This document shows, in pieces, positions 14,862-63,266 of a stretch of DNA of 64,000 bases. The stretch's first letter is position 1, and each line of letters opens with the position of its first letter. The notes beneath the pieces were generated by a model. The model had not been told where the DNA came from. It made no database searches and saw nothing but the letters and a program-made list of their open reading frames with translations. Made by a program: the position numbers and the translations under genes. The stretch is taken from the NCBI GenBank assembly GCA_951804945.1, contig OX638158.1, positions 43,524,001 to 43,588,000 on the forward strand. Direction: 5' to 3'. This stretch comes from Podarcis cretensis (lineage: Eukaryota).

Positions 14862-15000
14862 TTACACTAGCTGGTAGCCACTTCCAGTTGTTTGGTCATA
14901 TTCTATTGTATACTGCCTTGTCCAGTCCACAATAACAGGACGAAAAAGACCGCAGCATCTGAATTCAAAGAAGTCTATAATGTTTCTTATGCATCCATGG
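14862..15000 (-). CDS. ZDHHC17: ZDHHC17 exon 17
   Basis: [45 protein letters not shown]; AG acceptor. Confidence 0.95.
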
Positions 15001-21000: not shown

Positions 21001-23599
21001 TAGTTTTAAAGGTTTTATATTAAAGAGTCCAGAGTTGCATGTATTTAGATTCTGGATAGAAATATAAATGTATCATAACAATCTCATAATTCCTGTATAT
21101 TTTGAGAACATTATTATATAAAGCACATTCTGCTTACTTCATTACAGATGTTTTAGATAAGGTAAAACTTTTAATGAAGTGACAGCTGATTATAACTAAT
21201 GTTGGTATTTACTTTATACACACCACAAACTGAACAACAAAATATCCAGTATAAGATGTGTGTGAATCTAAAATGGCACTGTAAATTTAATCTGAAGTTA
21301 TTAATGGAAATTTTTTCATGGTTTTGCTCTATACTCGGAGATCTATGCACTTGTTTGATTTAGTCACAATCTGAAGTAGTCCTCTTCTATCTCCTATTTT
21401 TAGGATTGTCATTAAGGGTTGTCATTAAGATACATAGGAACAACAATAACTTTAAGAATTACTAGGAACTCTTGTATTGCTCCTGCTAAATACTTTGGTA
21501 GTGGGAAGTCTTACCACAGGGAGTGGCAACAGATACCAAAGCACACCTAGTGTACTAGAACATATATTTTTCTATTTGAACGTCTGGAACAGTCTGCTGC
21601 CCAGATTTCTATACTGACTTAAGAGAGCCACTGTATTTTGATATAAAAACCTGTGAGTGTTTTAAGTTAAGCTTCTACCCAAATCCATCTGAACTTCTGT
21701 CAAGGACATCCCACTGGAATACAGAGTGCTAACTTGGTGGGACAGGGACTCCAGTAAGGAATTTTGATATCCTGCTTTCTTCTGGATCCATCACAACCAC
21801 CCTATGGACTTGCCTTTTCCTATTCCTAGGAAGCGTGGCATTCATATGCCCAAATACTGGCTTAGGATTTTAGTTGGCAGAGGCACACTTATACCCTGTA
21901 TGAATATCGCAAGGTCAAAGAATACACTCATTTTCTAAATAGACATGATGTTAAAATTGGTAATTTAATTACATGTAAGCAAAAAAGCATACTACCAAAC
22001 AGGTACTGCAGAATATACTGAGGTCCAGACTTCCTGTCTCTGCAAGTTCCACTATTGTCTGCAGAAAAGGAAAAATAAGAATATTTAATCATTTAAGAAC
22101 CATATTCATACATGCTTCATAAGTCGACTCTAGTTGACAAACTTATGTCATAAAACAATTTACAGATAGGTAGCCGTGTTGGTCTGCCATAGTCAAAACA
22201 AAATAAAAAAATTCCTTCCAGTAGCACCTTAAAGACCAACTGAGTTAGTTCTTGGTATGAGCTTTCGTGTGCATGCACACTTCTTCAGATACACTGAAAC
22301 AGAAGTCACCAGACCCTTCTATATAGTGAGAAGGTGGGGAGGGGTATTACTCAGGAGGATGGTGGGATGGGTGATTGGCAGATAGCTGTGATGAGCCTGT
22401 TGACGACTCTTAACGACTGCAATAGGTCTTACAGGAAAAAGCAAGGGGTGAGAAGGTGAAAAATGGCTTTATCATGTATAATGAGATAAGAATCCAATGT
22501 CTTTGTTCAGACCAGGTCTCTCCATGGTTTTAAGTTTGGTAATAAGTTGCAATTCAGCAGCTTCTCTTTCCAGTCTATTTCTGAAATTCCGTTGTAATAG
22601 AACAGCTACTTTGAGATCTTGTATAGAATGTCCTGGGAGATTGAAGTGTTCTCCTATTGGTTTCTCTGTCTTGTGGTTCCTGATGTCAGATTTATGTCCG
22701 TTTATTCTTTGGCGTAAGGTTTGGCCTGAATAAACGGCTCATCACAGCTATCTGCCAATCACCCATCCCACCACCCTCCTGAGTAATACCCCTCCCCACC
22801 TTCTCACTATATAGAAGGGTCTGGTGACTTCTGTTTCAGTGTATCTGAAGAAGTGTGCATGCACACGAAAGCTCATACCAAGAACTAACTCAGTTGGTCT
22901 TTAAGGTGCTACTGGAAGGAATTTTTTTATTTTGATAAAACAATTTGTTAGCCTTCAAGGTGCCAGGAGATTCTTGGCTGTTTTTACTGCAAAAGCTACC
23001 CCACTGGAAATCCCAACTTCTATCTATTAACACACTCAGATTAGTTTAACACCATCTCAAGCTTGGACAAAAAGATCTTAAGGCCATTTTATTCACATCA
23101 AAGAAATTCGGCACCATTAGAGCCTATATAAACACACATGTGTAATTGGTTCTGCCCCAATTGCCTCTAAGATACAAGGGGACTCTATCCAGTAGCAAGA
23201 TCATTAGTTTCTGGCTGCTTCTCAAGACTGCACCAGCATTAGGGCTGTTGGGTTACTCCAGTAACAGGCATATCCTTTCCAACCTCAAAAATGTATCCCC
23301 TCGCATTCAGTTTGAAGCCGTTACAACCACCCTATGTTCTGCTGCGGTGACATGAAGAGGATAGCTGGGATACATTAAAATCTCCCAATACACAGAACAC
23401 TATATCGGGAAGGAGAGTCTACAGCCTAGTCTTTTTTCTGGACGTGCTGGTTTCCTTTCAAGGATGACATCTTCACCTTCATTTTCAACTGGACCAAAAC
23501 CAACTACACCATGTGATGAGTAATCTGTCTGGGCTTAGCCTTCAAGGTGCCACAACTCTTTCCACAATTGTTTATTGGAAGTTAAGATGCATACTTGAG

Positions 23600-23646
<47 letters not shown>

Positions 23647-26600
23647 CACACACACACGTACATTTTAAACACCAGAAATATCTGGATGACCTCAGCAGAT
23701 TTCCCAGTAGCAAAGCATTTAGTTTGCTTAGACTACAATTACCTCAGATGTTCTTAAATGGAAGAACTTGGCGAAACAGAGACAGAAACAATTTTCAGCA
23801 ACTCCCTGTCTCCTCTGCAGCCCCCTGTGCCCCTCTGTGGGAGGCTGGGTGGGGGACACTTTCCTGTAATTGCTTTGATTAGAAAACACTTTGAGTGTGT
23901 ACACAGAAAATCTAAACAGCATCTTCAACCATTAACAAGAATGGACTGTTTTGCATTTTACCTTTTTCTTTTGTTCTTCTGTGGCTTTAATTATTCCTGG
24001 GTCTGATTTCCAAGATTTTCCAAAATTGTAGAAAAGTGCAACACTATTAGCAAGAAATGGAAGGTGGATGAACACAAAATTTAGATGTATTAAATGTTAA
24101 GGAATTTGAATATGTTTTCTTTCCTGTTAAAAATAATTATTATCTGAAAATAATAGAATTCTGCAATACACTTTTTTGTTGCTAATTCATTTCACAGGGA
24201 ATGTACTAGATGCATGTCAAGACATCTAATAATTCTTTTTTGTCATTTTATGCTGTTCAAGTGTATCATCTTGCCTTAATTTGTTTGATAGCTCCAAAAT
24301 TAGCAGTGCAACATTATAAATGTTCTCTCAAAAGTCTGAATTCAGTTGAGCTTATTTCCTAGTCAATGTGTTTAGGATTGCAGCTTTTGTATCTCTTTAA
24401 ATCATTTTCTGACAGAAAACATTGAAATGGTCAACGATTTTTTAATATATATTTTTACTGTTTATGCCTATTAATGGCCTGAAATTCCAGCTATATCACA
24501 AAAAAAAACCTCTATAATAAAAGAGATTACCGTATTTTTCGTCCCATAGGACGCTCCGTCCCATAGAACGCACCTAATTTTTTTTTGGGGGGGGGAATTC
24601 CCCCCCCAAAACCAGGTCGGGGAACAGCGGGATGGCGGCGCTGCGCCTCCCCGCTGTCCCCCGAGCTTGTGGGGCTGGCCGATGTCTGCCCGAAGCGTGG
24701 GGCGCTCTGCTTCAGCGCGCCCGCGCTCCGTGCAGCAGGCTGCTATCCGCAGCCTAGGGAGCCCTGCAGGAACTGCCGCAGGGCTCCTCAGGCTGCGGAT
24801 GTCTGCCCGGCGCGCGGGGTGCTCTGCTTCAGGGCATCTTGCGTGCCGGGCAGCAGGCTGCTATCCGCAGCGTGGGGAGCCCTACAGGAACTCCCGTGGG
24901 CTCCCCAGGCTTGCTAATAGCTTCCTGAAGCCTGGAGAACGAGAGGGGTCGGTGCGCACCGACCCCTCTCACTCTCCAAGCTTCAGCGAAAGCCTGTATT
25001 TGCCCCATAGGACGCACACAGATTTCCCCTTCATTTTTGGAGGGGAAAAAGTGCGTCCTATAGGGCGAAAAATACGGTATACAGGGAATGATGAATACAA
25101 TAATAATCTCTTTTGGGGGGATGGATTACATTTATATTAAAGATTCCTCCTCTTCTTCCCCTCTTAATCATTTACTGAAAAAAGGAACATGTGCTTTATC
25201 TGGAAATGAAAGTGTTGGAATAAATTGCAGACCCTTGGATTTTTTCTCCAGTATTTGAATTCCAGCTGCTTCACAATTTGAAATTAACTTTGTTAATACC
25301 TAGGTATCTGTATTTTCTTCACATTAATTTGCACATAGTATAAGCTAATTATATTTTAACAAATATTTTCTACCATGAAATTACAAATGGCCCCAGTAGC
25401 ACCTTTTCTGCTTCAGTGCCTCAGCATTTATACACTCCATTGCCAAGGGAATGGCAAGCTCTAAACACACACACTTAAAACCTATTTAGCTAACATCACA
25501 AATTTCAGTGGTAACCCATCAGTTTCAAGTACAAATATGACACGCTGGAAAATATTTTTAGCATATGTAAAGGGGTTCCATAGCACTGAAATCAATGTGG
25601 GAAAGAGTTCCCTGAAGTTAGAAAGCCTGAAAACCACTGTGTTGCTGCAGATCATCAACAAAATACTGACATCAAGAAAACAATGAGCCTTAAACTTACA
25701 CGCCTGGTTTGCACATTAGTGCTAATACACAGCATGTTGGTGTAACATGGCTGCAACTGTGGGTGCTTCATTCCCTGCTTGTTCCTGCCATGCTGCTAAG
25801 CGTTATGTCCAGATCCAGACTCATGGTCTGTTTCTGAGAGCAATCCCCGCAGAGGCTTGGGAGGGAAGCTGCGCGCCCGCCAACCATATGGTTGGTGGGG
25901 TGCAGCTGGCGGGCGTACAGTGAAAGGGGAGGCCGCTGGCAAAGCCACACAGCTCTTCCACTCGCTGGGGAGTGCCCTGAGAGGCCAGTGCCCTGGCGCA
26001 ACGCACCACTAAGCCCTATAGGAAAGATGGCTCTGAAGAAAACACACTATGTCAAACCATGTGCTTGTTTCTCAGCAGCCTGGTAGGAGGGAGGGGGAGC
26101 ACACTGCATGTACACATTATAAACCATACTTGATTTAATGTGATATGCAAAGAAAACCATGGTCACCATTTAGCCAAGACATAAATTTCAATTGGACTTC
26201 ATCACCTTTGTGTAGAAATATGTCATTATAACAGGGCTTTTGAATCTAAGTCTCAAGTTAAAGTTCCCAAAAGAATATGGTACAGTCGTACCTTGGAAGT
26301 CGAAAGGAATCCGTTCTGGAAGTCCGTTTGACTTCCAAAACGTTTGGAAACCAAAGTGTGGCTTCTGATTGGCTGCAGGAAGCTGCTGCAGCCAACTGGA
26401 AGCTACAGAAGTCCAGTCAGACATTCGGCTTCCAAAACAGTTCGCAAACCAGAAGAGTCACTTCCAGGTTTGCAGCGTTCGGGAGCCAAAACGTTCAAGA
26501 ACTAAGCTGTTTGAAAACCAAGGTACGACTACATGTTTTCCTAAGTACCAGCATTCATTTCAATTACTAAACCACATGTCTAGACCACTAAAAAGAAGCT

Positions 26601-47600: not shown

Positions 47601-50600
47601 TAACATTTTCTTTATCTGGTTGCCGTACATCGTAGCCCGCTTCCACCAACTCTCGACAACGTTCATAAATTCCATACCTAGACAAAAGATTCCATTATGA
47701 TAATCAGATATTTTGGACTAATAAAGACAAAGCAGATTTGAATCCTAATATCTTATTTTATATATACTGCGTCTGTGATTTTAAAAACAAAGGACACAAT
47801 CTATAAAAAATACCAGTGTGTCCCCATGGAGCTCAGTTACTTTATTTTCCTTCCTCAGATGTTCCTTGATGCAAGCTGTAGTTTATTCACGGTCTACCCT
47901 TCACATACTTCCAAGGTCCCAGATGTCAAGTTGTGCTTGCCCTTCACAATCAATTATTTCAATAAAAACTGAATACATTTTCAGTACTGAAACCAAGGTG
48001 AGGCCAAATTTGTTGGTCATATTAGATTAATCACAGTAAGAATGTATATTTTATGATACTGTTGCAAGCCTTGCATTTTACTGTTTCTAAATACTTAAGC
48101 AAATGGAGCAAGATCTAATTAAGTCATACCTGGAGTAAACCTACTGAAATAAGTGAAAATTTACCTGCCCATTGATTTCAATAGTTCTACTCCAAGTAGG
48201 ACAAACATTGGATATCACCCATGATTAATTACTAAAGCCAAAATTGTGTATTGTCAAAATCCATTTGATTCAATGGCAGGTGGGATTGCCAAAGTTATTT
48301 TCCCCCAAACCCCACCCTCTTTCTTTTCTTTTCTTTTCTTTTCTTTTCTTTTCTTTTCTTTTCTTTCTTTCTTTCTTTCTTTGCTGCTCAGATAACGTTG
48401 AATGTGCACAAGTTAAATGCATGCAAGTTGCAGGCTTACTGTACCACACTTTAAGTATCCTAACTTATTATTACAGTGTCTTGTAAGATTCCATACTACA
48501 GTGGTACCTCGGGTTAAGAACTTAATTCGTTCTGGAGGTCCATTCTTAACCTGAAACTGTTTTTAACATGAAGCACCACTTTAGCTAATGGAGCCTCCCG
48601 CTGCTGCCACATGATTTCTGATCTCATCCTGAAGCAAAGTTCTTAACCCGAGGTACTATTTCTGGGTTAGCAGAGCCTGTAACCGGAAGCATCTTAACCT
48701 GAAGCGTCTGTAACCCGAGGTACCACTGTACTTCCACAGTTTAGACAAAATGGTTTTCAGGTTTACTTTTACACATACAAATGCAAAATTGAGGTTTACT
48801 TTGCATAACTAAAGCAAAAGTAACATAAACCTTCAATCTACTATAAACCATTAATTTTGGGCTTTACTATTAACTAAATGCACAATCTTAGCTTGTTCAG
48901 GGACAGCAGAGAAGAAAATTAGCGTTCAGATATTAAAACACTATTGCTATTTTTAGGCAAAACATTAGATGGTGCTCACTTCCACATTTCTCTTAAGTAT
49001 AAAACAGCTTTTACTAATATCTTACTGTAAAACACTATCATCACCATTTATATTTGCATGAAATCTTTTTCCAGCTGTTATCCAGTTTAACTTACAACCT
49101 GAAACTGGATCTTGGGAACAGAAGGAAGATAATTCATCTTCAATTTTATCTCATTTTGCTCTCTAAGTTATCACATTTGTAAGACAAACACCTTTATTCT
49201 AGTATTACAGCTATGGGAAGAACAATGCACACTCTGCATGACCGTGATTCTATTAAGTAAATCTTAACACTAGACTGTGAAGAGGGGGGAAATATAGAAG
49301 AGATTAAATACAAATTCCTCTTCTCTTGGCACTTCCATTATTAAAACTGCTGTTGGTGGCTCTCTGCATAGGTACCTGCTTGAATGAAGAGCTATGATTT
49401 AAGTTAAGTATAATCATACCTGAGAAATGAGAGAAGGCAGAAAAATAGCTACATCAATCAAGGTGTACTGTTTCCATGGTGTAGTGCAGGGGTCACCAAT
49501 GCATCACCTACAAGCACCAGCGTGTCTGCCAATACTTCCTATGTCTGCAAAAGGTCTCAGTAAATGTCCTCTCAAAACTCCACAATGCACAAGTGACTGT
49601 TTGCTCTTCCTTTGTTTCCACTTGTGCTGGGTTAGTCTCTCCTACACTGAACACAGCCCCTTAAACATGTCCATATTTCAGTGGATACCAGGATTGGACA
49701 CCCACCCTCCCATCTTCCTACTTTCACACTTTAACAGTTGGTAGCAACAGCTGCAGCATTAGGAGAGTAACAGGGCAAAAGCATATATTGTAGTAATGGC
49801 TGCTGTCTTTGCAGTGTTAAGTAGCTGGCAGGAAGAGGGTAGTAGGGCTGGTGAACAGAGGACTGGTGAAATGTAACTGGGTAAAAATATACTCTGTGAC
49901 GCTTTTATTCTAATTATTTTAACACTCACATTATTGGATTCTTAAACTGAAGCTACAGACAAACAAGACTGAAGCGCATTTGCATACGCTTTCTTTCCTC
50001 CACAGACTTTTCAAGAAGTACCAGTCCAAAATTGCTGTTCCGTTCCTCAAAATCTTTATGCAGACATTTTCAGAGGATTGTTTTCCACATGGTGCCAAAA
50101 TAGACAAGCTGTCAAATAAACCCACTTACTGTGTAGCTTTGACGATATCCCATGTGCTATAATCATCAATGTGACTTTTGCGCCCAAGAGATTCACTGTA
50201 TCCATGGGTATAATGTGCTTGGGGCTTGATTTCCTACAAAAAGAAGTTCATCACACTATTAGATTCATTTTAAGATTTCTAAAACAGAAGAAAAACTCTG
50301 CTGCATCAGGCAATTGGTCCATCCATTCCAGCATGCTGTTTCCCCAGAGTGGTTGCAGCAAACCCGCTCTTAACTACAGGCTAATTTATGGTTATTTAAA
50401 GTCTGGCACTTAGAGACTTGGGGAAGTTAAACAAGAAAAAGATTTTGTTTTAGAACAAAATTGGTAAAACATAAAGTGTGCCAGGAGATAGAATTTTATC
50501 AAGAAACAGTTAAACTTATACAGTACTATATATCTTAAATTCAGTGGATGTTACAAGGTGGTATACACACAGTTTCTTCAGCTAATTATATAGGTGTTAC

Positions 50601-53600
50601 AACTTAGCTTCTAATACTTGGGTTCCTAAACAAGGTGGTTCTTTATGTCAGTTTCCCAGTCTTCTTTAAATCACACTCCTGAGGCTTCTCTAGTAGTATA
50701 ACAGACCAAGGGATCACCATACCCCTCCAACTGGTTTGGGATTCTTCTCTTTCTCTATCCCCTTCTTACTGAATGGAGAAAAGCTGATGGATTAGATATC
50801 AGTACAAAATGGTGCCAGTAATTCTCAACTGATTATGCCACATTCTGCTTCCATCTGCCATTACGTTGAGACTGGCTGTGTCACTGCACTACCATTTTGT
50901 GACTGGTGGGCATCAGCAATTTTCAGCCACCTCTAGTGGGCCCCAGACAACCCCTGACTTAAAAGAATTATTTCAACAATTCTGTGTTGATTTCAGTGCA
51001 GTTTATACTATTTAAGGCATTTGTTTCTAAATAGCAACCTGCGCTAATAAATATACTGTCTAACTCTAGATTTTGGAATCTATTCTCATGGACCAACACA
51101 ACTAGCTTTAATTTTTCAATGTAGATTTTAGGAAACCATTTTGGTTTGCTTGAAATAATTGGTATCTAGTTTAAAACACCTACTATTAGGAGGAAGGAGA
51201 TACGCAGATACACAGCAGACACAGAATATCTTCATCTTTTGCATTGTGCCAAAGCTCTCCAAATTTCCAAGCTTTCTATGTAACGGAACCCTTCAACAAA
51301 ATTGGAAACCACAACCAATGCCAGTGATGAATTCACAAAACGGACTGATGGAAAAGATTCTACAGCATTCTATTAGCCACCCCTAATTTAGGCAAAGTTG
51401 TGAACAGTAAAATGGGCCAATCCCTACATATAATGGAGATTTAGTGCGAGCCACTGCTTCCCTTATATGCATGCTTCAGTAAGATAACCCAGCTTCTGCT
51501 GCTGGGTAATTTAGAAGGGTGCCTGGCAGTTGAATTATTTGGCAAGAATCTCTTCATTTCAAACCCAATTATAGATGATAACCAATCCTTCAGGATAAGA
51601 AATCCATCTAATGTCTAGTAACAAATATTCAAATTCAGTTGGGAGAAGCTGCAAAATGTACAGCAGACTGTATACTGCAAGTACTAAAGGAACATCTTGA
51701 TTCCACCTCCTAAGGAAATGGAAAAACACTGCAGTGAGGTGGAATCAAAACTGAAGGTAGTTGCAAGCAAATATGTGGAAAAGTCAGCCAGACTGCAAGC
51801 AGGAAACAGTGGCTCAGTTTGCATGTCATTATGAAATAAAGTTAATCATTTATTAGGAACGCGCTGATTTCACCTGCTTTGCTCCTCCTCACTAGCATGA
51901 CAAACAAACCACAATTTTTGGCTTAGCTTTACATCTGATTCAAAGATTGTGGCTTGTTTTGCTCAAATAATAGTTTCTTGCGTATTTAGTAAAATCCATA
52001 ACACAATTTTAACACAATTACAGTTTAATGTGACATTTGAACAAAGCCAGTAGTTAAGAGTTTTGTTTTAGCTTACAAAGTTAACGTTAAGACAGGCTTG
52101 CACAACCTCGGCCCTCCAGATGTTTTTGGCCTACGACTCCCATGATCCCTAGCTAGCAGGACCAGTTGTCAGGGATGAAGGGAATTGTAGTCTCAAAACA
52201 TTTGGAGGGCGGAGATTGAGGAAGCCTGCGTTAAGACTTTCAAAGACACCCCTTTTAATTATAATTATTTATTTGGGTTTTTTATTGTTAGTCAATGTTC
52301 TGTTGGAAATGTTCTGAGGCCTATTTGGTTATTGGGTGAGATACAAATATAATAGTGCATTGTATCTGCTAGAGAAAGGTCACCACTGGAAAGCACTTCA
52401 GCTTGGGTAAGTCAGGGCACCTGTTTTCCCCCCAATACCCCTTATTAACTGCAGACTACGCTGCACCAGAAAAAGGCTTTTCATAAAAACTGAGACACAC
52501 TCTTCAACAATATGGAATACAGTAGAGAAAGGTGCAGTAGATGTGGCCAGTAGTGGCGGTGGAGGCAGAGAGATCAGTGAAAATTGGATGGCCTGCACTG
52601 CATAAGCAATTTCCACTAGTGCAAAGCCACAATGGATGTAACCCAATTAGCTACAGTTCAGTGGCCAATCACATGCTTTGCAAGCAAAAGATCTCAGGTT
52701 TAATCCCTGGCCTAGAATCTCCATGTAAAGTTGGGAAAATATGCTACAACAGCAGCAAGAATACTTATTGCAAAGTACTGGAAGACACAAGATCTACCCA
52801 CCCGGGAAGAATGGCAGATGAAGGTGATGGACTACATGGAACTGGCGGAAATGACTGGCAGAATCCGAGACCAGGGAGAAGAGTCGGTGGAAGAAGATTG
52901 AAAGAAATTTAAAGATTATCTACAGAAATATTGTAAAATTAAGGAATGTTAGAAAGATGTTGGAATGAAGTTACATGGCTTTAGCAGAAATGTTATAAAG
53001 AATTAAGTATAATAGATTGTAATTGGATTAAAGGAAAAAATAATGTTAGAATTTGTTAAGTTAAATGATAGGACAGAAGTTTGAGGAAGATGGAAAGGAT
53101 TTGCTGAAACAATTAATCGAAGTGGAATACAAAAAAAGGGAGGTGTGAGGAGGTCGCTGAAACAAGTAAAAGAAAGTTAATAACATTGAAAGTATAGGTT
53201 GTGTTTCTTTTTTCTTTTCTTTTTTTAATTGTTTTTGTTTTATTTTTGTTATGTATATGTAATATTTTTGTTTTTGTATTGTACTGTATGGTTTTGTTAT
53301 GTTTAATTCTTTTTCCTTTTCCTTTCTGTAACTTTTAAAACTTTAATAAATATTATTTTTTTTAAAAAAAGTAAAGTTGGGAAAATATTTCCGTCTGATG
53401 GATCAGTGGTCTGACTTGGTATAAGGCAGCTTCTTATATCCCAAACCCAGTATACTCACTCGAACAATGTACTCCAATGCTTTGCTGTGGTTATACACAA
53501 ATTATTACTCCTGCTACCAATTATCTTCGTTTAACTAACAATTGTTTTCAGTTTGATTTCAGTTATTTATTAGTTTACAAACTTGGCCAATTATTTTGAA

Positions 53601-56600
53601 AGATGGAATATGCTATTAAAAAATAACTGACTACATGCATGTAACACGGGCAAAAGGACTTCAGACTGATATTCTGTGAGTGCTAGCTTTGCATAGAAAA
53701 GAGAATATGCTAGAGATAGATCCTTAGGCTGTTTTTTCTGCAGGAAAAAGTTTGTGCCATTATAAATATAAAAACTAAATTGCTAACTGCAGAAACAAGA
53801 AGCACAATGTTTGAAACAATTTGTGAAAGCAAACAGCACTAACAAATTGCATTTTTTCAGATATTCAAAAATAGTTCTCATAAACTAATAGAAAACAACA
53901 GGGGAATTTTATTCAGCAAGAATCAGTCATTTAACTAACTGATTAATCCTGCACATTCTCCAATATGCTTATGCTGTTTTTACATAACAAAGGGATGGAC
54001 AGATGCATGACCAGAGCTTTTAATCCAAACACTGCATTTGGAGGTCAGAAAGATCATGTGATTTCATGCACAGCTGGCATGGAATAAGCTGTCTTTTTTT
54101 TTTTAATGGACCATTCCGATTAGTTAAATTTTACTCATTCAAGCTGAAATACACATGCATTAAAATCAATGGGAGATTTTCCTCTATTGACTTCACCAGT
54201 CCATAGAATCTGCTGTGTCAATCTATGTTTTTTTAAGAAGTATTAAAAGGGTCAAGTATTCTTGTCAAACTGTTCTTCTATACTTACATAACATCTTTAA
54301 ACATTTGTTTACTGAGAACACCTCTTTAACAGCATATGGATTTAGTTAAATTTCTAAGAATAGCATTTGTTCATGTAGCATAAATTTCAATGGGGGAAAT
54401 ATAACAATGACTTTACAAAAAAAACCTGGGTATAATAGAATCTACAGTTAAGCATGCTTAAATCCTGTTGATTTCAGTAAGATTTACACGTGCTCAACTA
54501 TGTAGTGTATTATTACCATCCTCAAACTTGAGTCTTTAGCTACTGTTGAACTACAACTCCCATCATCCCTAGCTAGCAAGACCAGTGGTCAGGGAGAGTG
54601 GAGTGGAGACCCAACTACAAGTGGAGTGAAGATCCAAGTTTGAGAAACGTTGTCCTATTCCATTGCCCCACCAGAACCATCCCAGTCTCTACTGTAGGTC
54701 TTCAGAAATGGGAGGCAGTGGGGTTGGAAAGCGGGAAAAGTTATGAAGCAGCTACACAACTAGAAAAGGAAATTGGGGAACATGGAAGAGACATGTGGAT
54801 AAAACAGCAGGGTTCTTCCATCTCTACATACACCACACAAAATTACAAGCAGTATCAGACAGTCTTTAATATGCCACAGGAAACCCTGTGTTAAACACAA
54901 AGAGCTATGTGAAGAATTAGAACAGCTGCTGGTGCTGTTTCACAGCCATTTGCACACAAAGAGTTCCTGGTACATTCATGCAGGTAAATTATCCAGCAAT
55001 TCTTTTGATTGCACTTGAGCAGCAGCGTGCACACATGGAAAAACCTATTTGGGTTTTAGTTTCACTTTTCTAGTTCAACACACAGGAACAGCTTTGGATC
55101 CAACCCTCTGTTGTTTTCGTTGCAATAGAAAACCTGATTGCTATTCTAGCATTCATCACACTTTCTTTAAATCAGTGCAGCCTATTTTGACATAAAAGCA
55201 ACTGTCCAGCAGGGAACAATGGAAAGGAGACCACTGAAAAACTTTATGGCATGCACCAATGTTTTGTGCACATAGGCTAATGAATGTCTTACAAGCCAAC
55301 TCTTAATAATTTCTGCTTCAGAAAATATACACTAGAGATGAGGCACAGTAACTCTTAACGGAATTAAACAGTACCTTGCAGGGATAGTTCTTACACTGCA
55401 GACATGGGCTGGAGCTACCAAGTTTAGACAGAGGATCTTAGTCACATTTGTTAAATAAATACAGGTGTTTATCAAGACTACTTACTATCTCATGAACCAT
55501 GTTTGAAGTTGTTTGTATAACAAAACAGTATGAATATCATATGTGCTAATGATACTCAGTTCTGTCGTATCTCAGGTGAGGCCTAAACCAGGGTCCAGAT
55601 GCAGAAATGGACTGGATCCTGGCAAGACTATGGGGGGGTGGATTCCAATCCAGGAGCTGGGTGATGAAACCAACCTATTTTAGATGGAAAAAATTCCTTC
55701 CAGTAGCACCTTAAAGACCAACTATTTTAGATGGAGTTGCACTCCCTGCAAAGGACTGTATATGCCATTTGAGAGTACACCGTGACTCTTCTTTGTTCAT
55801 AGGAGTCCAGATGGCTATGGTGATTAGGAGTGCCTTCTACTTGATTTGACTGATATATCAAATGCTCCAAGTCTTGGACCAGGACAGCCTGGCTTCTGTG
55901 ACCTATGCACTGGTGACTTCTAGACTGGATTACTATAATGTCCTCAATGCAAAATTCCCTTTGAGGTTGGTTTGGAAGCTGCAGTTGGTGCAAGATGCTG
56001 CAGTGAGGTTACTTGGTGGAGCATCCTACTGTGCACATACTGTACCACTCATTAAGGAGTTGCAGTAACTGTCAATGAACTACTGGGTCAACTTCAAGGT
56101 TTTGGTTTTAACCTACAAAGCTCTGAAAAATACCTGCAGGAGCCCTACTACCCTGCTTAAGCACTGTGCTCAACTGCAGAGGCCTTCTTTATTTTTTTAG
56201 AAGGCTGCTCAGGATTTATTAGTTTCCATCAGACATGTACAAAACAAGAATTAAGTGTTAATAAGGCTTTGTTGGGTGGGGAGAGAGGGGAGAAGATGCA
56301 GCTGCACTGACAAAAAACAAAGTTGTAGAAAAGGATGGTACAGAAGATTTCTCCCCCCCCCCTTTTGTTGCCATTTTTGCTTCTATAAAAACCTATGTCT
56401 AAGAAGTACTCAAAGCAGTTTGCTCTACTCTACAGGAAGGGGGAGTGGAAAATGGGTTCTGCTTCCTAGTGCTCAAGTCAGAAGCTTCCGGCCAGGGAGT
56501 GTCAGTCTCCTCATGCAGTGGAAACTGTACAGTGGTGCCCCACAAGACGAATGCCTCGCAAGACGGAAAACTCGCTAGACGAAAGAGTTTTCCGTTTTGG

Positions 56601-59600
56601 AGGTGCTTCGCAAAACGAATTTCCTATGGGCTTGCTTCGCAAGACGAAAATGTCTTGCGAGTTCCTGCGGGTTTTTTTCCCTTCCCCCCCCCTTTTTCTA
56701 AGCCGCTAAGCCGCTTATCCGCTAAGCGCCGCTAATAGTGCTAATCCGCTAAGCCGTCAATGGGCTTGCTTCGCAAGACGAAAAAACCGCTAGACGCAGA
56801 GAATCGCGGAACGGATTCTTTTCGTCTTGCGAAGCACCACTGTATTCGGTTTTCTGGGCTCACTGGCGTAGCACTTCCACATCACATCCTGAGCCAGGCC
56901 ACATGTAATCATGCAGTTCACCATCTTTAAAGTTCCTGGGTTCTCTAGGGATTCCAACACAGTTGTCATGACTGGGTGGGTCGTCTTTCCAAAGAAGAAG
57001 CTGGCCCACCAGTGCCCAGGGTCAGACTTGGGGAGACCTGTATGGTGAGGGATGTCTTCCCCATAATCAGCACTTCCACAGGAGCTGTGGCTAGAAGTGG
57101 AACCCACATGCTTTTGGCAGCAGTCGTGGCTTGCCACAAGGGAGCCGCTTGGCGGTACTGCTGCCATGTTTCTTTGTTCTTGTGCAAGTTGTAACCCCTT
57201 TAAGACTTAACGCTGCACTCAGCAAAATCCTAGCTGTTTCAGACCACAGGTGACCTGGCTCGGGGGTGGGGGCTAGGTGATGGAGCCCATTTGCAAAGGA
57301 GATACTAGGAGTACACTCCACGCACACCCAAAAACATCGAGGCATGTATGGATTTCAGAGGCCCTCTTTGTTGTGCCACAATCTTGTTTAGTGACAACTA
57401 GTGTCTGCCATAGCTGCCCACTTCCTATTGAATTACTTCTTTATGGAGCTCCAATAAGCACAAAATGCTAAGGAAATTTCTGTATTTCTTAAAAATACAC
57501 CTGCACACTCAAAGCTCTTGTAATGTTTAATGTCAAGAATTAATTAATGGTGTGGGACTTTTACATTCTAGCTAATCACCATTCATCCACAGCACAGAGT
57601 TAGGGCTTCCATGTTACTGACCCAAAAGTAAGAGTCACTCAATTTTGCACTTTTTAGGGTGTTTAAAAATGTCCAGACTTACGTTTTAATTCTGCATTTA
57701 AGAATGTGTGCATTTATTTTGTGTCAGTTACTACTGAAACAAGTGCTACTACAGTCAATCTTGATCACGTACCACCTGGAGGTTAATAAAAAGTGTTATG
57801 CTGATATCAGCTGAGACCCACTCCTTCCATTAAAACCTCTACTCACAGTTCCATTTACTTGGCAGTCTCACACCATCTCTGTGTCTACAGACCATATGCT
57901 CCATCTCTATAATTACCTCTGAAGTTGTGAGACTGGAACAAAATATTCTTATCTGCCTCTGCCAGGTCTCATACCAGAAAAAGCAATGAAAGAGCCCTGC
58001 TGGATCAAATCAAACACCTAACCAGTCCAACACTTTGTTTTTACAGAGGCCAACTATGGGAAGCCTGCAAGCAAGACCCAAGTGGAGCAGTACTCTCCCC
58101 ACTTGTGATGCCCAGCAAATGGCATCAGGTACAGTGCCTCTGAGTGTAGAACACAGGTAGAACACAGCCATCATGACTAACAGTTACTAATAGATCAATC
58201 CACCATGAATTTGTCTAATCCTTTATTAAATCCATTAAAGTTAATGGCCATCACTTAATCTTTGGGGAGCAAGATCTAGAAGTAAACTATGTGCAGAGTG
58301 AAAAAGTATTTTCTTTTGCTTGTGCTGAATCTTTCAACATTCAACTTTTCTTGGGTGGCCACCAGTAGCATCTCTCCTACATAAAGAAAATACCTTAAGA
58401 AACCATGTTTTGGAAAAAGCTGAGGATATACACTTTAACTTACAGCAGCAATCTAGAGAATGTTAAACATCTCATGAACTCAATCACACTCTTGATCAGT
58501 CTCAACTTAGAACCACACACACGTAGAACCACACACTATAAGAAGACTACTTAAATCAACCATCAGTCTTCCAGTTCTGACATCTCTGTTAAGTTTTAGT
58601 TTGATCTAAAAAAGACCAGGAATTGAGAATGTTTAGATCCAGCCCCTCCTCTCTCCACCTGCTTCCCCATTATCTTAGTTTCCCTTTAACATTTCCTTAT
58701 TACCGTATTTTTCGCCCTATAGGACGCACTTTTTCTCCTCCAAAAATGAAGGGGAAATGTGTGTGCATCCTATGGGGCGAATGCAGGCTTTCGCTGAAGC
58801 CTGGAGAGCGAGAGGGGTCGGTGTGCACCGACCCCTCTCGCTCTCCAGGCTTCAGCGAAAGCCTTGGGAGCCCGGCGGGAGTTCTCACGGAAGGCGCCCA
58901 CTCCGTCTCCGGCAGGGATGCGGCGCGCGGGGAGCCTCCACCTGGGTGGGAGACGAGGCGATGCCGGGGCGTCCGGCCGAGCTCCGCAGCGCCTGCAGCC
59001 GCACTTGCTGCTGCTTCTGGAAAGGCGAGCTGCTCCTGACGCGGGGAGAACCAGGGACATGCAGCCGATACCCCTCCGGCCCCGGCCAGGTGAGCTGGCG
59101 GGCAGGTTGGGCGGCCAAGCAGGGTTGGTTGGGGGAGCAGGCGGGCGCGCAGCACGGGGCCACAGAGCCACCCAACGGGAGAGCCGAGCGCAGCCCCTGC
59201 AGGAGGACAGCGGGGCGCTGCCCATGGAGAGCCCCGCCGCGCTGGAGGACGCACTCCTCGGCTGCCCACCCACCTTGGGGCTGCCTGGCATTGTGCGTCC
59301 GGCTGCCCCTCTTTCCTTGGAAGCGGTGCAGGCTGCGAGGGAAGGGGGGATCCCAGATCTCTGCCCGGTACAGCGGGTCTGAGTCCCGGACGCAGCTGAG
59401 CTGGGGTGGACGGCGGGAGGCACCGGGGAGAGAAGCCGGAGAGGTTCAGGAGGGACCTCCCAACTTATTTTCGGAGCGCTGCGGAGGGAGGGGGACTTGC
59501 GCGCTTAAGGCGGCAAAGAGCTGCTTGCAAAACAACCGCTGATCTTTCGGCACTTCGCATTAGCAGAGGGGGTGGCGAGGGGAAGCATCTGCCCAAGGAG

Positions 59601-62600
59601 CAGCGGGAGGGGAGGCATTGCTTGTTCTTGTTTCGTTAGCCTTCCGGATTTGCCTGCTTCTGGTGGCGCTTTGGGGCTGATCACCATGCGCCTGCTTATC
59701 ACTTGTGGACTTGTTGCTTGGAGACGCCTAGCTCCAGCTGTGCTAACTTTCTCCGCTGAAGTGCAGTGCGCCTGAGTCAGCTTCGAAGCAGACGAAGAGT
59801 TCTGCTTGCCGCCTGTGACTCGCCCGGATGGCTCATTCACGGGCAAGTCACTGCAAAAAAACCAGGGATATGCCTTCTTAGCCCCGCCGGAGTACTTTTT
59901 AAAAGGCAGCGAGCCTTAAGGCTAGAGAGGTAAAGGAAGCAACACTCCAAGTGAACAACTGCAGACTTCTTTGCCTTTGCAAATGCATCATTTGTCAGAC
60001 TTCTGAAATGTCAGTTTATGCATCATTGCTTTGGCTATGGTGCGGACCCCTCCCAAAGTTTTTATAAATAACACAAAACAATTTAAAGTGCTTGGTTTTC
60101 AGGGTCCTGCCTCATTTTCAGGGACTGTCTCTTAATTCTGGACATCACTGCCCCCAAAGGAGCACGATGCCATATTCCCAACTGCTAGGCACTGTAGAGA
60201 CTTCTTAGGATGGAAACCTTATCAGTGCTGGTTGTGTATAAACTTTCTGAGCAGTCAATTATTTGTAGCAAAGCTGTGCTTTGTGGTTGCTTTTTTTAAA
60301 AGGGGGTTAAACTTAAGACTCTGTAAAAGGAAGGTTTTACCTGTGGGTTCTGAGATCTTTTTTCTGAATTTTATTTTCTTTATTTCCCCCCAAAAAACCT
60401 AGGTGTGCCCTATGGGCGTCCTATAGGGCGAAAAATACGGTATATATCCATCATTAAAATGATTTAGCTATCATTAAAAGGTTAATCAACATTCAATGGC
60501 CGGATAGCCTTTAAATGTATCATATGTGGCTTTCTCAACAAAAGACTACTTGTAGTGGAGCATGAAAATAACTACACAGAAAAAGTATTATGGCTTTCAT
60601 TAATTGTAGATACTTAACTACACCATGCATGGACATCGCTGAGAACACAGGCCCAGATACAACAATCAAAAATTGTCTTCTTTTTCCCCTTTTCTTTTTT
60701 GACATTCAGTGAATGTGTTCGGGGATCATGCCAAACCACAGTTTAGCATCATGGGAATGAGCTGCAGTGAGCCTTAGACTCAAGGCAGCAATGCTTCTGA
60801 ATATCAGCTGCTGGAAACCACAAAAGGGGAGAGTGCTCTTGTACTTGAATCCTGATTGCAGGTTTCCCACAGGCAGTCACTATGAGAGCAGGATACTGAA
60901 CTAGATGGGCCATTGGCCTGATCCAGCAGAGTTTTCTTATGTGCTTACATGTTCCATCATTCCCATTCTTCCTCTGGTATAGCTGCATCAAGTTTGGAAG
61001 CTTTTGCTTCTTTTTTTATTTAACCACAGTTTGTTTAGTGTACAAACTAACGAACAGTGATTAATGTTAACTCTTTGTCTGAAACAAGCTAATATCCAAC
61101 ACAGTTCATTGGCTCATTTTCATGTTGGCACTCTCACTGGCAAAGTTCCCAACTAGTGGGTTGTGCTGATGTTTCTAGAGGTGCTGGGCACATATCTGCT
61201 ATTTATATGCCATTTTTAAATTTTCTGATTGTGTTTCACCCACCTGCTTCCAGGGCTGACTATACACAGACTATGGTGGTAATTACACTAGCACAGTGGT
61301 GATCTCCCCAGCTCCCCTCCCCAAATGGAGTATAGGATTGCTATGTAAAATACTCCCAAGTGCATGGCATTTTCTTAGCCATGTCTTGCTACTATTTTAC
61401 TTGTTTTTACCATAAATATTTTATTGTATACCTTCAATTACATTATTTTCACTGATGAAATCAAATGGAAGGAAAAGGATTATCAAATGTAAGATACAGT
61501 CTTAGACAAATCCTCAATAAGTTGACTAAGAAAAATACCATCTGCTCAGTAAAAAAACAAGCCCAAACACCCCCCGATATTTGGCACACCTTTTAATGAC
61601 ATAATATTTCATAATTAATCAAAGCATGTCCTTTATTATACTATGCAGGAAGCAGCTATAAAACTACAAAAATGGCCTTCAATACAATTTCTTGTAGGGC
61701 TGCAGCCCTATAAAATTAGATTTTGAGTACTAGAATATTGACAAGTTAACGTTTCAAAATAAGATGACTACCAAAGGATTTTCTTGGCACAGGTTATCTC
61801 TGCTACTGCTACCACCAGCATCTAAACAGCAAAATATAATATGCCCCTGCTATACTGGACGACTTGTCTTTCTGGGGCAGGAAAGGCTGGATTTTTAAAA
61901 TGCAGAAGACTTATAAATCCTCAAAAGAAAGGTAAGCACAATGGACAGAGAAACAGTTGGAATTTGTTTTTTTGTTTTTAAGTGCACTGGCATTTTTAAG
62001 TACACTGGCAGGTAACTGAGAAACAACTAAGGCACCTATTAATAACATAGAGCACTATTCATTAGGTGCCCATAACACCACTGCAGTCATCTTCCTGATA
62101 GTCACGCTTATGAGAGTAGAAAAGAAATTGGTGTTTCCCAGCAACTGATTGCCTGGTTTGTAACTAATGCAACTTCCAGAAACTCTGTTAATCTGTCAGA
62201 GAGAAAAACATAACTTTGCAACACCTTTAAAAACTAACAAATATACAGGGTGAGTCCTTTAAAAGAGGCACCGTGCATACAGAGTACACATGTTCCATGG
62301 GGCCTCTTTTAAAACACTCACCATGTATTATGTCCTAAAAACCAACAAATACATTACGCCTGTACAAAATTAACAAAAGTTTATCCCATAATAAATATGC
62401 CCATCTTCAGAGAGCTACCACACTCTTTGTTGTTCCCCTAATTTATAGGATCAAGCTGTAAGCCACAATAGGCCCCAAACTCTACAGCGAAAAGGGGGAA
62501 AGGAGATCAATGACCTCACAAGACCAGAAAGTGTATCGCTCTTGTTTAAATCTAGCTCTGAATCCTTTTACCCAAACCAGAAAGCTGCCCTGTGGGCCCC

Positions 62601-63266
62601 TAAATTGTGCAATTGCGCGCTTGGGCCATTAGCAGGTTCAAAAGCCTTTTTCAGCGTTTAACTAGAGGAGTGTGATACTTCTCTCTTGAGGTTTTTGAGT
62701 CTCAGGACCCCCCCCTTTTTTTTCCCCTTCTTTTTTCAAGTAAACTCAAGGCACCTGCAGTTCCTCGCTCCTTTATGTGTGATTAAGGGAAAGCGGTTCA
62801 TTGGTTACGGATTGTCCAGGAGGACACCCCCTCCCCATCCAGTTTCCAGCCCAAATATCCTTGTGAGGGAATCAGAATTAACGAGGGGGACAGGGCAAAG
62901 CCTCGTCCTCTACCTACCCACCCCTGCGGGCACTGGGGAGCTTGCCTGCCCAGCCTGTTCCCTTCCCCTCCCCGCAGCCCAGCCAAGGCGCACCCGCCGC
63001 CGCCGCTTCTCCCTCCCAGACAATCCTGCCCGCGCCTCCGGGCCAACCTCCGCCCCCGCCTGGGAAAGGAGTGCCAAGAGGAGGGCGGAGGCCTCCGCTG
63101 CCGCCGCCACTTTCCGCTCCTCCTCCTCCCTCTCGCCGCCACCCAGCTTCTTCTCCAGGCTGACGGGGTTGCGAGGGAGGCCTTAAAGCCAGCAGGGCCT
63201 CACCTCAGGGTGCAGGATAGGGACGCAGCCCGCTTCTTTCTCGTACTCCTCCAGAGGCGCCGCCAT
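14862..63266 (-). CDS. ZDHHC17: Palmitoyltransferase ZDHHC17 (HIP14), 622 aa, 17 coding exons
   Basis: Exons sum to 1869 nt; N-terminal ankyrin repeats, TM helices, DHHC-CRD ([15 protein letters not shown]), TTNE motif, C-terminus ...GSGYQLV*. Confidence 0.97.
15528..15719. mobile_element. hAT-type MITE
   Basis: 8-bp TSD ccctaaaa; TIR cagctttccaaac...gtttggaaagctctg. Confidence 0.75.
16793..16887 (-). CDS. ZDHHC17: ZDHHC17 exon 16
   Basis: [31 protein letters not shown]; AG/GT. Confidence 0.95.
18660..18817 (-). CDS. ZDHHC17: ZDHHC17 exon 15
   Basis: [52 protein letters not shown]; AG/GT. Confidence 0.95.
19066..19149 (-). CDS. ZDHHC17: ZDHHC17 exon 14
   Basis: [27 protein letters not shown]; AG/GT. 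Confidence 0.95.
20052..20145 (-). CDS. ZDHHC17: ZDHHC17 exon 13 (DHHC motif)
   Basis: [31 protein letters not shown]; AG/GT. Confidence 0.97.
21996..22058 (-). CDS. ZDHHC17: ZDHHC17 exon 12
   Basis: [21 protein letters not shown]; AG/GT. Confidence 0.93.
22255..22292 (-). ncRNA. Minimal hammerhead ribozyme motif in Penelope pLTR (sense in ZDHHC17 pre-mRNA)
   Basis: GUAU-CUGAAGA-A-GUGUGcaugCACAC-GAAA-GC-UC-AUAC: CUGANGA/GAAA core, stem II, 4-bp stem I, palindromic AGCU in place of stem III. Confidence 0.65.
22841..22878 (+). ncRNA. Second copy of the hammerhead motif (inverted pLTR)
   Basis: gtatctgaagaagtgtgcatgcacacgaaagctcatac. Confidence 0.65.
23604..23642. repeat. (TG)n microsatellite
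   Basis: Direct reading. Confidence 0.95.
23962..24086 (-). CDS. ZDHHC17: ZDHHC17 exon 11 (preceded by AC acceptor)
   Basis: [41 protein letters not shown]; upstream TTCCTTAAC...TAC|. Confidence 0.94.
24530..25077. mobile_element. Tc1/mariner (Tc2-like ends) MITE, GC-rich interior
   Basis: TA TSD; TIR ccgtatttttcg...cgaaaaatacgg; same termini as 58703-60440 in opposite orientation; internal ~95-bp tandem duplication and hairpin. Confidence 0.88.
26283..26531. mobile_element. Tigger-like MITE (family of 1889-2140, inverted)
   Basis: TIR cagtcgtaccttgg...ccaaggtacgact; interior matches the reverse complement of 1889-2140. Confidence 0.82.
28344..28444 (-). CDS. ZDHHC17: ZDHHC17 exon 10 (followed by AT donor)
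   Basis: [33 protein letters not shown]|ATATCCTT. Confidence 0.94.
30023..30165 (-). CDS. ZDHHC17: ZDHHC17 exon 9
   Basis: [47 protein letters not shown]; AG/GT. Confidence 0.95.
30525..30650 (-). CDS. ZDHHC17: ZDHHC17 exon 8
   Basis: [42 protein letters not shown]; AG/GT. Confidence 0.95.
32964..33043. mobile_element. 80-bp mariner-type mini-MITE
   Basis: TA TSD; TIR cagggtgagtc...gactcaccctg; second copy at 62246-62325. Confidence 0.85.
33044..33100. repeat. (TAGA)n microsatellite
   Basis: Direct reading; begins at the MITE TA TSD. Confidence 0.9.
35581..35935 (+). mobile_element. Sauria SINE (full length)
   Basis: tRNA-like head gggacgcgggtggcgctgtgggttaaacc...ggttcgaatcc (A/B boxes), ccttta-repeat tail, TSD tatgccactcta/tatgtcactcta. 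Confidence 0.88.
36145..36293 (+). mobile_element. hAT transposase remnant (BED zinc finger)
   Basis: [25 protein letters not shown]...[12 protein letters not shown] follows the zf-BED pattern W.YF...A.C..C...S.....L...H. Confidence 0.6.
37771..38532. mobile_element. Probable hAT (Blackjack/Tip100-like) non-autonomous element with GC-rich interior
   Basis: Inverted ends taggcctgctgtat...atatggcaagccta; no clean TSD. Confidence 0.45.
39838..40000 (-). CDS. ZDHHC17: ZDHHC17 exon 7
   Basis: [54 protein letters not shown]; AG/GT. Confidence 0.95.
41462..41526 (-). CDS. ZDHHC17: ZDHHC17 exon 6
   Basis: [21 protein letters not shown]; AG/GT. Confidence 0.95.
42400..42900 (+). mobile_element. L2-clade LINE RT fragment
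   Basis: [21 protein letters not shown] and [43 protein letters not shown] (RT N-terminal motifs, frameshifted). Confidence 0.8.
43620..43814. mobile_element. Partial Tigger-like MITE
   Basis: Ends ccaaggtgctactg+TA; internal cacttccgggtttgc motif shared with the 1889/26283 family. Confidence 0.55.
44157..44301 (-). CDS. ZDHHC17: ZDHHC17 exon 5
   Basis: [48 protein letters not shown]; AG/GT. Confidence 0.95.
44640..44880. mobile_element. Palindromic MITE-like repeat
   Basis: Long imperfect inverted repeat (ttataccactttaacagtcatg...catgactgcgaaagtggtataa). Confidence 0.55.
45480..45650 (-). mobile_element. CR1-like LINE fragment
   Basis: Reverse strand resembles CR1 ORF2 C-terminal region (gagctggaaaagatgcagcca...aaaatgatcaaggggctggag). 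Confidence 0.55.
45715..45792 (-). CDS. ZDHHC17: ZDHHC17 exon 4
   Basis: [25 protein letters not shown]; AG/GT. Confidence 0.95.
47100..47400 (-). mobile_element. L2-clade LINE fragment
   Basis: [14 protein letters not shown] and [28 protein letters not shown] motifs. Confidence 0.75.
47555..47677 (-). CDS. ZDHHC17: ZDHHC17 exon 3
   Basis: [40 protein letters not shown]; AG/GT. Confidence 0.95.
48320..48382. repeat. (TTTTC)n/(TTTC)n microsatellite
   Basis: Direct reading. Confidence 0.9.
48499..48728. mobile_element. Tigger-like MITE
   Basis: TA TSD; TIR cagtggtacctcgggtta...taacccgaggtaccactg. Confidence 0.9.
50130..50233 (-). CDS. ZDHHC17: ZDHHC17 exon 2
   Basis: [34 protein letters not shown]; AG/GT. 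Confidence 0.95.
52093..52228. mobile_element. hAT-type MITE
   Basis: Perfect 8-bp TSD cgttaaga; TIR caggctt...aagcctg. Confidence 0.85.
52649..53440 (+). mobile_element. Degenerate Squam3-like tRNA SINE split by an L1 insertion
   Basis: Head ...cagtggccaatcacatgctttgc...caggtttaatccctggc and tail gatggatcagtggtctgacttggtataaggcagcttc flank the L1. Confidence 0.6.
52743..53370 (+). mobile_element. 5'-truncated L1-clade LINE 3' end
   Basis: 18-bp TSD gtaaagttgggaaaatat; [38 protein letters not shown]2 C-terminal-like peptide; T-rich 3' UTR, aataaa and A tail. Confidence 0.85.
55520..56190 (+). mobile_element. L2-clade LINE fragment (host of the PPDPF retrocopy)
   Basis: [42 protein letters not shown]; L2-like sequence resumes after 57356. 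Confidence 0.8.
56191..57355 (-). pseudogene. PPDPF: Processed PPDPF retrocopy (ORF 57167-56790 open; original stop at 56511-56513)
   Basis: [15 protein letters not shown]...[11 protein letters not shown]...[18 protein letters not shown]...VMTTVLES...TCGLA matches PPDPF as I recall it; intronless; AATAAA at 56215-56220; poly(A) remnant ~56188-56198; TSD cagaggccttcttt (56177-56190) / cagaggccctcttt (57356-57369). Confidence 0.9.
56530..56842. mobile_element. Tigger-like MITE inserted in the PPDPF retrocopy
   Basis: TA TSD; TIR cagtggtgc...gcaccactg; same family as 11254-11573. Confidence 0.9.
57590..57871 (+). repeat. ~280-bp direct repeat, copy 1 (ZDHHC17 intron 1)
   Basis: Aligns by eye with 63685-63957, including an identical acccactccttccattaaaacctctactcacagttccatttacttggcagtctcac block. 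Confidence 0.85.
57985..58370 (-). mobile_element. CR1-like LINE 3' end
   Basis: aagagccctgctggatca...ccagtccaaca; reverse complement resembles 60780-60945. Confidence 0.6.
58703..60440. mobile_element. 1.74-kb non-autonomous Tc1/mariner (Tc2-like ends) element with captured GC-rich cargo
   Basis: TA TSD; TIR ccgtatttttcgccctataggacgc...gcgtcctatagggcgaaaaatacgg; subterminal regions shared with 24530-25077; no transposase ORF. Confidence 0.85.
60780..60945 (+). mobile_element. CR1-like 3' terminus
   Basis: gatactgaactagatgggccattggcctgatccagcagagttttcttatgt terminal motif. Confidence 0.6.
62246..62325. mobile_element. 80-bp mariner-type mini-MITE (inverted copy of 32964-33043)
   Basis: TA TSD, cagggtgagt TIR, same interior reversed. 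Confidence 0.8.
63204..63266 (-). CDS. ZDHHC17: ZDHHC17 exon 1 (coding part)
   Basis: aagATGG Kozak context; [21 protein letters not shown]|gtgagg. Confidence 0.93.

What the first reader, a model, noticed from the sequence alone, without database searches (positions are those of the whole stretch)
56177..57369. Complete PPDPF retrocopy in ZDHHC17 intron 1: ORF still open, C-terminus replaced by a MITE
Seen: an intronless PPDPF-like CDS ([13 protein letters not shown]) with ~190 nt 5' UTR, 3' UTR, AATAAA ~16 nt before an A-rich tail, and a 14-bp TSD with one mismatch. It is in the same orientation as ZDHHC17 and inserted into an L2 relic. A TA-flanked MITE landed five codons before the original stop (pre-insertion end ...RKPNTVSTA*, 113 aa), so the frame now reads through the TIR to give 125 aa ending [17 protein letters not shown]. 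Established: PPDPF is multi-exon in vertebrates. Inference: conserved YYRRR became CCQKH, partly CpG-type changes, which points to neutral decay. The unbroken frame and a sense-oriented poly(A) signal inside a transcribed intron still make expression, or premature ZDHHC17 polyadenylation, worth testing.
Basis: partly seen in the sequence, partly recalled or inferred. Interest (0 to 1): 0.72.

Follow-up and report, generated by a model that had tools for sequence, protein, structure and literature searches.

The report
Decaying PPDPF retrocopy in lizard intron
This is a real, full-length, intron-free copy of the PPDPF messenger RNA pasted into the first intron of ZDHHC17 in a lacertid lizard and later hit by a small transposon; its reading frame is still open, but it is mutating like a dead gene and is likely an ordinary pseudogene.

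Summary
Window 56177-57369 (minus strand) joins all five exons of a parent PPDPF on contig C6, starts at the parent's predicted start site, ends in a short A-tail, has a 14-bp TSD, and lies sense in ZDHHC17 intron 1 inside an old LINE relic. A TA-flanked 313-bp MITE gives the 125-aa frame. The copy behaves as neutral: 25 amino-acid and 9 synonymous codon changes in codons 1-108 (neutral simulation 21.5 and 7.9), 14 at conserved positions (14.6 expected), 22 of 35 parent CpGs decayed, S6, Y16 and Y17 lost. Four related organisms carry the same insertion; two lack the MITE and two have a 17-nt frameshift. Two Podarcis gene models are broken earlier in the frame. In the one informative RNA-type run, parent contigs reach depth about 20,000 and the copy's locus 2.6, like flanking intron. 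Against this: chance survival of the frame is only about 1-7%, a Zootoca copy is also open, and the reported Raptor-binding block is nearly untouched. Premature polyadenylation is untested and unlikely (15 sense AATAAA in this intron). The scan had no PPDPF note but noted a similar dead lizard retrocopy before.

The parts
56177..57369 (-). Full-length PPDPF retrocopy with both TSDs
   Evidence: Joins parent exons 1-5, 113 differences in 840 aligned sites
57356..57369 (.). TSD, 5' side of the copy
   Evidence: 13 of 14 match; perfect in organisms B and C
57168..57355 (-). 5' UTR from parent exon 1 and the start of exon 2; begins 34 nt after the start of the parent's TATA box, so the promoter was left behind
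56844..57167 (-). PPDPF codons 1-108, open; 25 amino-acid changes from the parent
56790..56843 (-). Read-through into the MITE terminal repeat: 17 codons and a stop; the first two residues equal the ones displaced
56530..56842 (.). Non-autonomous TA-targeting MITE (Tc1/mariner type, inferred), 313 bp
   Evidence: 2497 first-look candidates, best 96%; 1.3% from the majority of 24 fetched copies; site empty in organisms E and F
56511..56529 (-). Orphaned last five codons and original stop codon
56199..56510 (-). 3' UTR with AATAAA at 56220-56215 and an acceptor-like pyrimidine tract ending at 56430
56191..56198 (-). A-tail remnant
   Evidence: the parent's genomic sequence diverges here
56177..56190 (.). 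TSD, 3' side of the copy
55820..56176 (+). Old LINE relic (L2-like by recalled motif) that received the insertion; continues beyond 57370
50234..63203 (-). ZDHHC17 intron 1 (host)

Best explanation
This is an intron-free copy of the PPDPF messenger RNA, likely pasted in by a LINE's enzymes, that has since been mutating at the neutral expectation and is likely a non-functional pseudogene whose frame stayed open by chance. Shown: loss of four introns, full-length 5' end, A-tail, TSD, position in ZDHHC17 intron 1, the same insertion in four related organisms, and a later MITE insertion (site empty in two of them). Inferred: target-primed reverse transcription by a LINE, probably L1 type, given the poly(A) mRNA and the 14-bp TSD; insertion before the Zootoca-Podarcis split; silencing by methylation because the promoter stayed behind; passive transcription only as part of the ZDHHC17 pre-mRNA, removed with the intron; a poly(A) signal that is weak because the parent's downstream element was not copied.
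For: Codons 1-108: 25 amino-acid and 9 synonymous codon changes against 21.5+/-2.7 and 7.9+/-2.6 in neutral simulations with UTR-derived rates. Pairwise NG86 dN/dS 0.70, and a lower bound for the copy because the parent's protein branch is 0 in the tree. 14 of 25 changes hit positions conserved in 90% or more of 28 orthologues, 14.6 expected. 22 of 35 parent CpGs decayed in the copy against 2 of 11 the other way. All 7 coding differences visible between the window and organisms B, C, E, F are non-synonymous (45 rows of that table were hidden). B and C carry a 17-nt duplication that would end the frame at 100 aa, and G60E. The P. raffonei model leaves PPDPF after residue 52 and runs into the LINE flank of this locus; the P. 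muralis model changes frame near codon 34. Residues reported as functional in the human protein are lost: S6 (PMC9839844), Y16 and Y17 (PMC12775230). RNA: 6 of 6 RNA-type runs hold only 0.10-0.15 of the words, the parent alone shares 0.07; in X15, 8 of 8 listed coding letters are the parent's, at depths of 4,900-24,000, while the contig across the copy's 5' junction has depth 2.6 and a flanking intron contig 5.5. CpG o/e is 0.00-0.11 in the kb upstream of the copy. 22.5% of lepidosaur retrocopies keep an open frame (bioRxiv 10.64898/2026.06.26.734816).
Against: Chance that the frame stays open after 30-36 substitutions: 0.33-0.35 for no stop and ATG kept, 0.01-0.07 once frameshifts are included (crude). 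The Zootoca copy-like protein is also open at 113 aa, and E and F show no coding indel (their stops could not be checked). The breaks in the window and in B and C fall after codon 95, in the least conserved tail. One 84-nt stretch (about codons 43-71) has a single difference from the parent, P 0.02-0.06 post hoc, and holds the reported Raptor-binding segment (PMC8144412). NCBI annotates two of the copies as proteins. The RNA test used contigs of other organisms, of unknown tissue, and 1 of 4 runs laid nothing.
Confidence: 0.85

Rival explanations
1. The copy makes no useful protein but trims ZDHHC17 output: some pre-mRNAs would be cleaved at its poly(A) signal, or would splice from exon 1 into the acceptor-like site at 56430 and end there.
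For: Sense orientation, intact AATAAA with one upstream UGUA; it is a poly(A) signal that worked in the parent; one pyrimidine-rich acceptor candidate in the 3' UTR. Retrogene-linked intronic polyadenylation is known at H13/Mcts2 (PMC13309782, abstract).
Against: The intron holds 15 sense AATAAA and 13 ATTAAA, 7 AATAAA upstream of this one; the copy's downstream region scores 8 GT/TG/TT against 14 in the parent and is in the lower part of the intron's range of 5-18 (a crude score). The insertion sits about 6 kb from both exons, outside the near-exon zones that PMC3088655 describes as hazardous (abstract). H13/Mcts2 needs an active CpG-island promoter, which this copy lacks. If the P. raffonei model is a spliced RNA, it passes over this signal.
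Confidence: 0.07
2. A translated retrogene that lost the N-terminal GTP-binding and phospho-tyrosine sites but kept the Raptor-binding block, acting as a partial or decoy PPDPF.
For: Open frame in the window, Zootoca and probably E and F; first 95 codons open in B and C; low-change block over the motif; a CpG-rich transposon 1.3 kb upstream could in principle supply a promoter.
Against: Neutral pattern overall; the motif itself is hit in B and C (G60E) and absent from the P. raffonei model and disrupted in the P. muralis model; no copy-level RNA above intron background.
Confidence: 0.04
3. The copy was briefly constrained after insertion, or its middle block was overwritten by gene conversion from the parent, and it has decayed since.
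For: Low survival probability of the frame; the low-change block coincides with parent exon 4; L45F is shared by the Zootoca and P. raffonei proteins but the window has the parent's residue.
Against: The changes shared with Zootoca already include S6P, Y16C, R18Q and G85C at conserved positions, so decay began on the stem; the block's P value is marginal and post hoc; the parent's later 18-nt duplication in this exon is not in the copy.
Confidence: 0.04

Closest known systems
Processed pseudogenes (retrocopies) of non-mammalian vertebrates; PMC3136929 (abstract, passages) and bioRxiv 10.64898/2026.06.26.734816 (passages)
   Same: Intron loss, A-tail, TSD, highly expressed parent; an open frame is common (217 of 404 Anolis copies; 22.5% in lepidosaurs).
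   Different: Shared across several lacertids, whereas 90.6% of lepidosaur copies were species-specific in that species sample; C-terminus supplied by a MITE. It fails the Ka/Ks < 0.5 cut-off used in PMC3136929's tables for likely functional copies.
PPDPF / exdpf family (Pfam PF15060)
   Same: Residues 1-108 match the whole profile; the WWASFFF block is intact.
   Different: S6, Y16, Y17 and the basic run after them are changed; 14 conserved positions altered; no promoter, no introns.
Intronic retrogenes that trigger host polyadenylation (H13/Mcts2; PMC13309782, abstract)
   Same: Retrocopy nested in an intron of a host gene.
   Different: No CpG island at the copy's 5' end, no sign of its own transcription, no purifying selection.
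TA-targeting MITEs of Tc1/mariner type (classification recalled, no repeat library on hand)
   Same: Terminal inverted repeats, TA duplication, no coding capacity, thousands of copies.
   Different: Here the terminal repeat happens to extend an open frame by 17 codons.

Membership tests
Processed pseudogene / retrocopy | Parent gene elsewhere, introns precisely removed | tested here: met
   Parent on C6; four junctions joined
Processed pseudogene / retrocopy | A-tail after the poly(A) signal | tested here: met
   8-nt remnant 16 nt after AATAAA; not templated in the parent
Processed pseudogene / retrocopy | Target-site duplication | tested here: met
   13 of 14 here, 14 of 14 in B and C
Processed pseudogene / retrocopy | Neutral sequence evolution | tested here: met
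Processed pseudogene / retrocopy | Disabling stop or frameshift | tested here: not met
   Not in the window's copy (only the last five codons displaced); met in B, C and two Podarcis models. Required by the strict definition of retropseudogene, not of retrocopy.
Functional retrogene | Purifying selection (Ka/Ks against parent < 0.5) | tested here: not met
   0.66-0.70 pairwise, neutral in simulation
Functional retrogene | Own transcript | tested here: inconclusive
   None above intron background in X15; 4 of 6 RNA-type runs laid, other organisms, contigs only
Functional retrogene | Translation | not testable with these tools
   No Ribo-seq or proteomics; exact protein not in the collection
Host-terminating intronic poly(A) site | 3'-end reads at the site | not testable with these tools
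   No raw RNA reads were offered
Tc1/mariner-type MITE | Terminal inverted repeats, TA duplication, high copy number, empty site in relatives | tested here: met
   23 of 24 fetched copies begin with TA
L2 LINE | Match to an L2 consensus or RT phylogeny | tested here: inconclusive
   Dispersed LINE-like relic with weak RVT_1 hit in one relative; clade from a recalled motif

The most novel reading that the evidence does not exclude
A lacertid-specific separation-of-function PPDPF: a retrocopy that shed the GTP-binding serine and JAK2 tyrosines but keeps the Raptor-binding block, is expressed at low level from ZDHHC17 read-through or from the CpG-rich transposon 1.3 kb upstream, and gained a transposon-derived basic tail, while its poly(A) signal also trims ZDHHC17 transcripts.
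Probability: 0.04. Interest if true: 0.55.

Novelty: new member of a known kind. Interest (0 to 1): 0.13.

Why it matters
Modestly. It is a tidy dated series (LINE relic, then retrocopy, then MITE) whose presence/absence steps could serve as clade markers in lacertids, and a warning for annotation: databases list orthologous copies as PPDPF-like proteins in Zootoca and two Podarcis species. If the novel case were true it would be a natural experiment separating PPDPF's reported mTOR and RAS/Wnt functions.

Tried and rejected
The X5 contig that carries parent-type exon 5 and 3' UTR letters and then the copy's flank (record 15) I read as an assembly chimera and did not use as an empty MITE site or as gene conversion. 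MITE presence in B and C rests on contigs reaching only 22-24 nt into the terminal repeat, under the tool's 31-letter rule, so it is probable only. Codons 109-113 were left out of the selection tests because their alignment to the parent is ambiguous. No absolute date: the passages of PMC2719621 gave no Zootoca-Podarcis age. ORFs in the upstream GC-rich stretch hit no Pfam family (5 of 5). No paper on a lizard PPDPF retrocopy appeared in the listings (30 of 349; 20 of 1,662; 12 of 786); the bioRxiv survey has no PPDPF in its main text, and its supplementary tables, which could list this copy, were not available.
Full report
Observation. The 125-aa frame at 57167-56790 is there and matches Pfam PPDFL over residues 1-108. 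A search of the own genome gave 4 matches: the copy and three exons of one gene on contig C6. That parent has five exons with GT-AG introns of 6436, 2712, 1839 and 1044 nt, and the copy joins all of them. The copy begins 34 nt after the start of the parent's TATA box, so it is full length and took no promoter. AATAAA, an 8-nt A-tail remnant and the 14-bp TSD are as described. The host is ZDHHC17; intron 1 spans 63203-50234 on the same strand. The flank is an old LINE-like repeat that continues across the empty site; the name L2 is recalled.

Order of events. Copy and parent differ at 113 of 840 aligned sites. The MITE is 1.3% from the majority of the 24 nearest copies fetched (a set chosen for closeness) in a family with 2497 first-look candidates. 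Contigs of four other organisms, B, C, E and F, bridge the copy's 5' junction and C, E and F also its 3' junction; E and F show the empty MITE site as a 315-nt skip; B and C probably carry the MITE. Three database proteins belong to this copy: a 113-aa Zootoca protein sharing 9 derived residues, an 80-aa P. raffonei protein and a P. muralis model. The window, Zootoca and P. raffonei proteins form one clade at 99/98. The last 29 residues of the P. raffonei protein match the LINE flank at 56033-55947, which places it at this locus, and the tail of the P. muralis model matches the copy's 3' UTR. The Zootoca flank was not tested. The window is therefore from a lacertid (inference), and the insertion likely predates the Zootoca-Podarcis split.

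Selection. The parent protein has branch length 0 over the aligned region, apart from its own in-frame 18-nt duplication, so the amino-acid changes belong to the copy. Codons 1-108 show 25 amino-acid and 9 synonymous codon changes; 1,500 neutral simulations with 36 substitutions and UTR-derived rates gave 21.5+/-2.7 and 7.9+/-2.6. Pairwise dN/dS is 0.70. Fourteen of the 25 changes fall on the 63 positions conserved among 28 orthologues I chose from the hit lists, against 14.6 expected; the Zootoca protein behaves alike, 12 against 11.7. CpG decay is one-sided, 22 of 35 against 2 of 11. S6, reported as a GTP-binding site (PMC9839844, passages), and Y16/Y17, reported as phospho-sites (review PMC12775230, passages; the primary paper was not read), are changed. 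B and C carry a 17-nt duplication that would stop the frame at 100 aa, and G60E; all 7 visible coding differences among relatives are non-synonymous, with 45 table rows hidden.

What speaks against plain neutrality. The frame had about a 1 in 3 chance of keeping its ATG and avoiding stops and, with my rough indel rates, 1-7% overall. The Zootoca copy is open too. An 84-nt block around codons 43-71 has one difference (P 0.02-0.06, noticed after the fact) and covers the human Raptor-binding residues 51-64 (PMC8144412, passages; the one-residue offset is inferred). The finding was picked because the frame is open, and open frames are common among lizard retrocopies: 217 of 404 in Anolis (PMC3136929, passages) and 22.5% in lepidosaurs (bioRxiv 10.64898/2026.06.26.734816, passages). 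The motif is itself hit in sister lineages. I give the residue of doubt about 0.08 in all.

Expression. Of 23 runs listed, 14 DNA-type or unlabelled runs of six organisms hold 0.36-0.88 of 58 words and 6 RNA-type runs hold 0.10-0.15; the parent mRNA alone shares 0.07 of the 31-mers. Four RNA-type runs were laid. In X15 the deep contigs carry the parent's letter at 8 of 8 listed coding sites and the parent's extra 6 nt, at depths of 4,900-25,000. One contig crosses the copy's 5' junction into intron at depth 2.6, beside an intron contig at 5.5: pre-mRNA or DNA background. X17 and X19 gave one parent-like contig each and X16 none. These are contigs from other organisms, tissue unknown, RNA status guessed, so silence in this species is not shown.

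Polyadenylation. Intron 1 has 15 sense AATAAA and 13 ATTAAA; seven AATAAA lie upstream of the copy's, and the parent's GU-rich downstream element was not copied. The copy is about 6 kb from both exons (compare PMC3088655, abstract). The known case, H13/Mcts2, depends on nested transcription from a CpG island (PMC13309782, abstract); CpG o/e upstream of this copy is 0.00-0.11 for 1 kb, then rises in a transposon at 58701-60442. An effect on ZDHHC17 is not excluded but has no support.

Verdict. A real, well-preserved retrocopy with neutral evolution and an incidental MITE-derived tail; a new member of a known kind. The scan's notes hold no PPDPF entry; one note on a dead lizard retrocopy split by a transposon pointed me to PMC3136929. 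Interest 0.13.

Noticed in passing
window 58701-60442; L048 (G000:C4), L049 (G000:C6): A 1,742-bp TA-flanked element with terminal inverted repeats carrying a long GC-rich, CpG-rich interior (GC up to 0.70, CpG o/e 0.62-0.79); the interior has only three matches in the genome, 89-95% alike. Looks like a Pack-TIR capture (PMC8277862, search listing only); source of the interior not found; no Pfam hit in five frames.
   Followed up: partly
L052 (G000:C7:85470630-85470690): A second PPDPF remnant of about 60 nt: 3' end, AATAAA and A-rich tail. It is 83% like the parent and 87% like this copy and shares the copy's interrupted tail; either an independent truncated retrocopy or, less likely, a copy of this copy, which would mean its poly(A) signal was once used.
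   Followed up: partly
L005 (G000:C6:8063362-8063476), parent exon 4: The parent PPDPF carries an in-frame 18-nt tandem duplication (119 aa instead of 113) absent from the copy and from the orthologues aligned.
   Followed up: no
P0089; window 57012 and 56033: The P. raffonei model jumps from copy codon 52 to the antisense LINE flank; a 4-nt microhomology fits a genomic deletion, a nearby GT and AG fit a splice. If spliced, the copy is transcribed in that species.
   Followed up: partly
window 56528-56529: The TA that the MITE used corresponds to CG in the parent (codons 108-109), so CpG decay apparently created the target site.
   Followed up: no
window 11252-11575: A second, more diverged copy (87%) of the same MITE in the window.
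   Followed up: no
run X5, record 15: A contig that carries parent-type exon 5 and 3' UTR and then the copy's flank; probably an assembly chimera through the shared 3' end.
   Followed up: no
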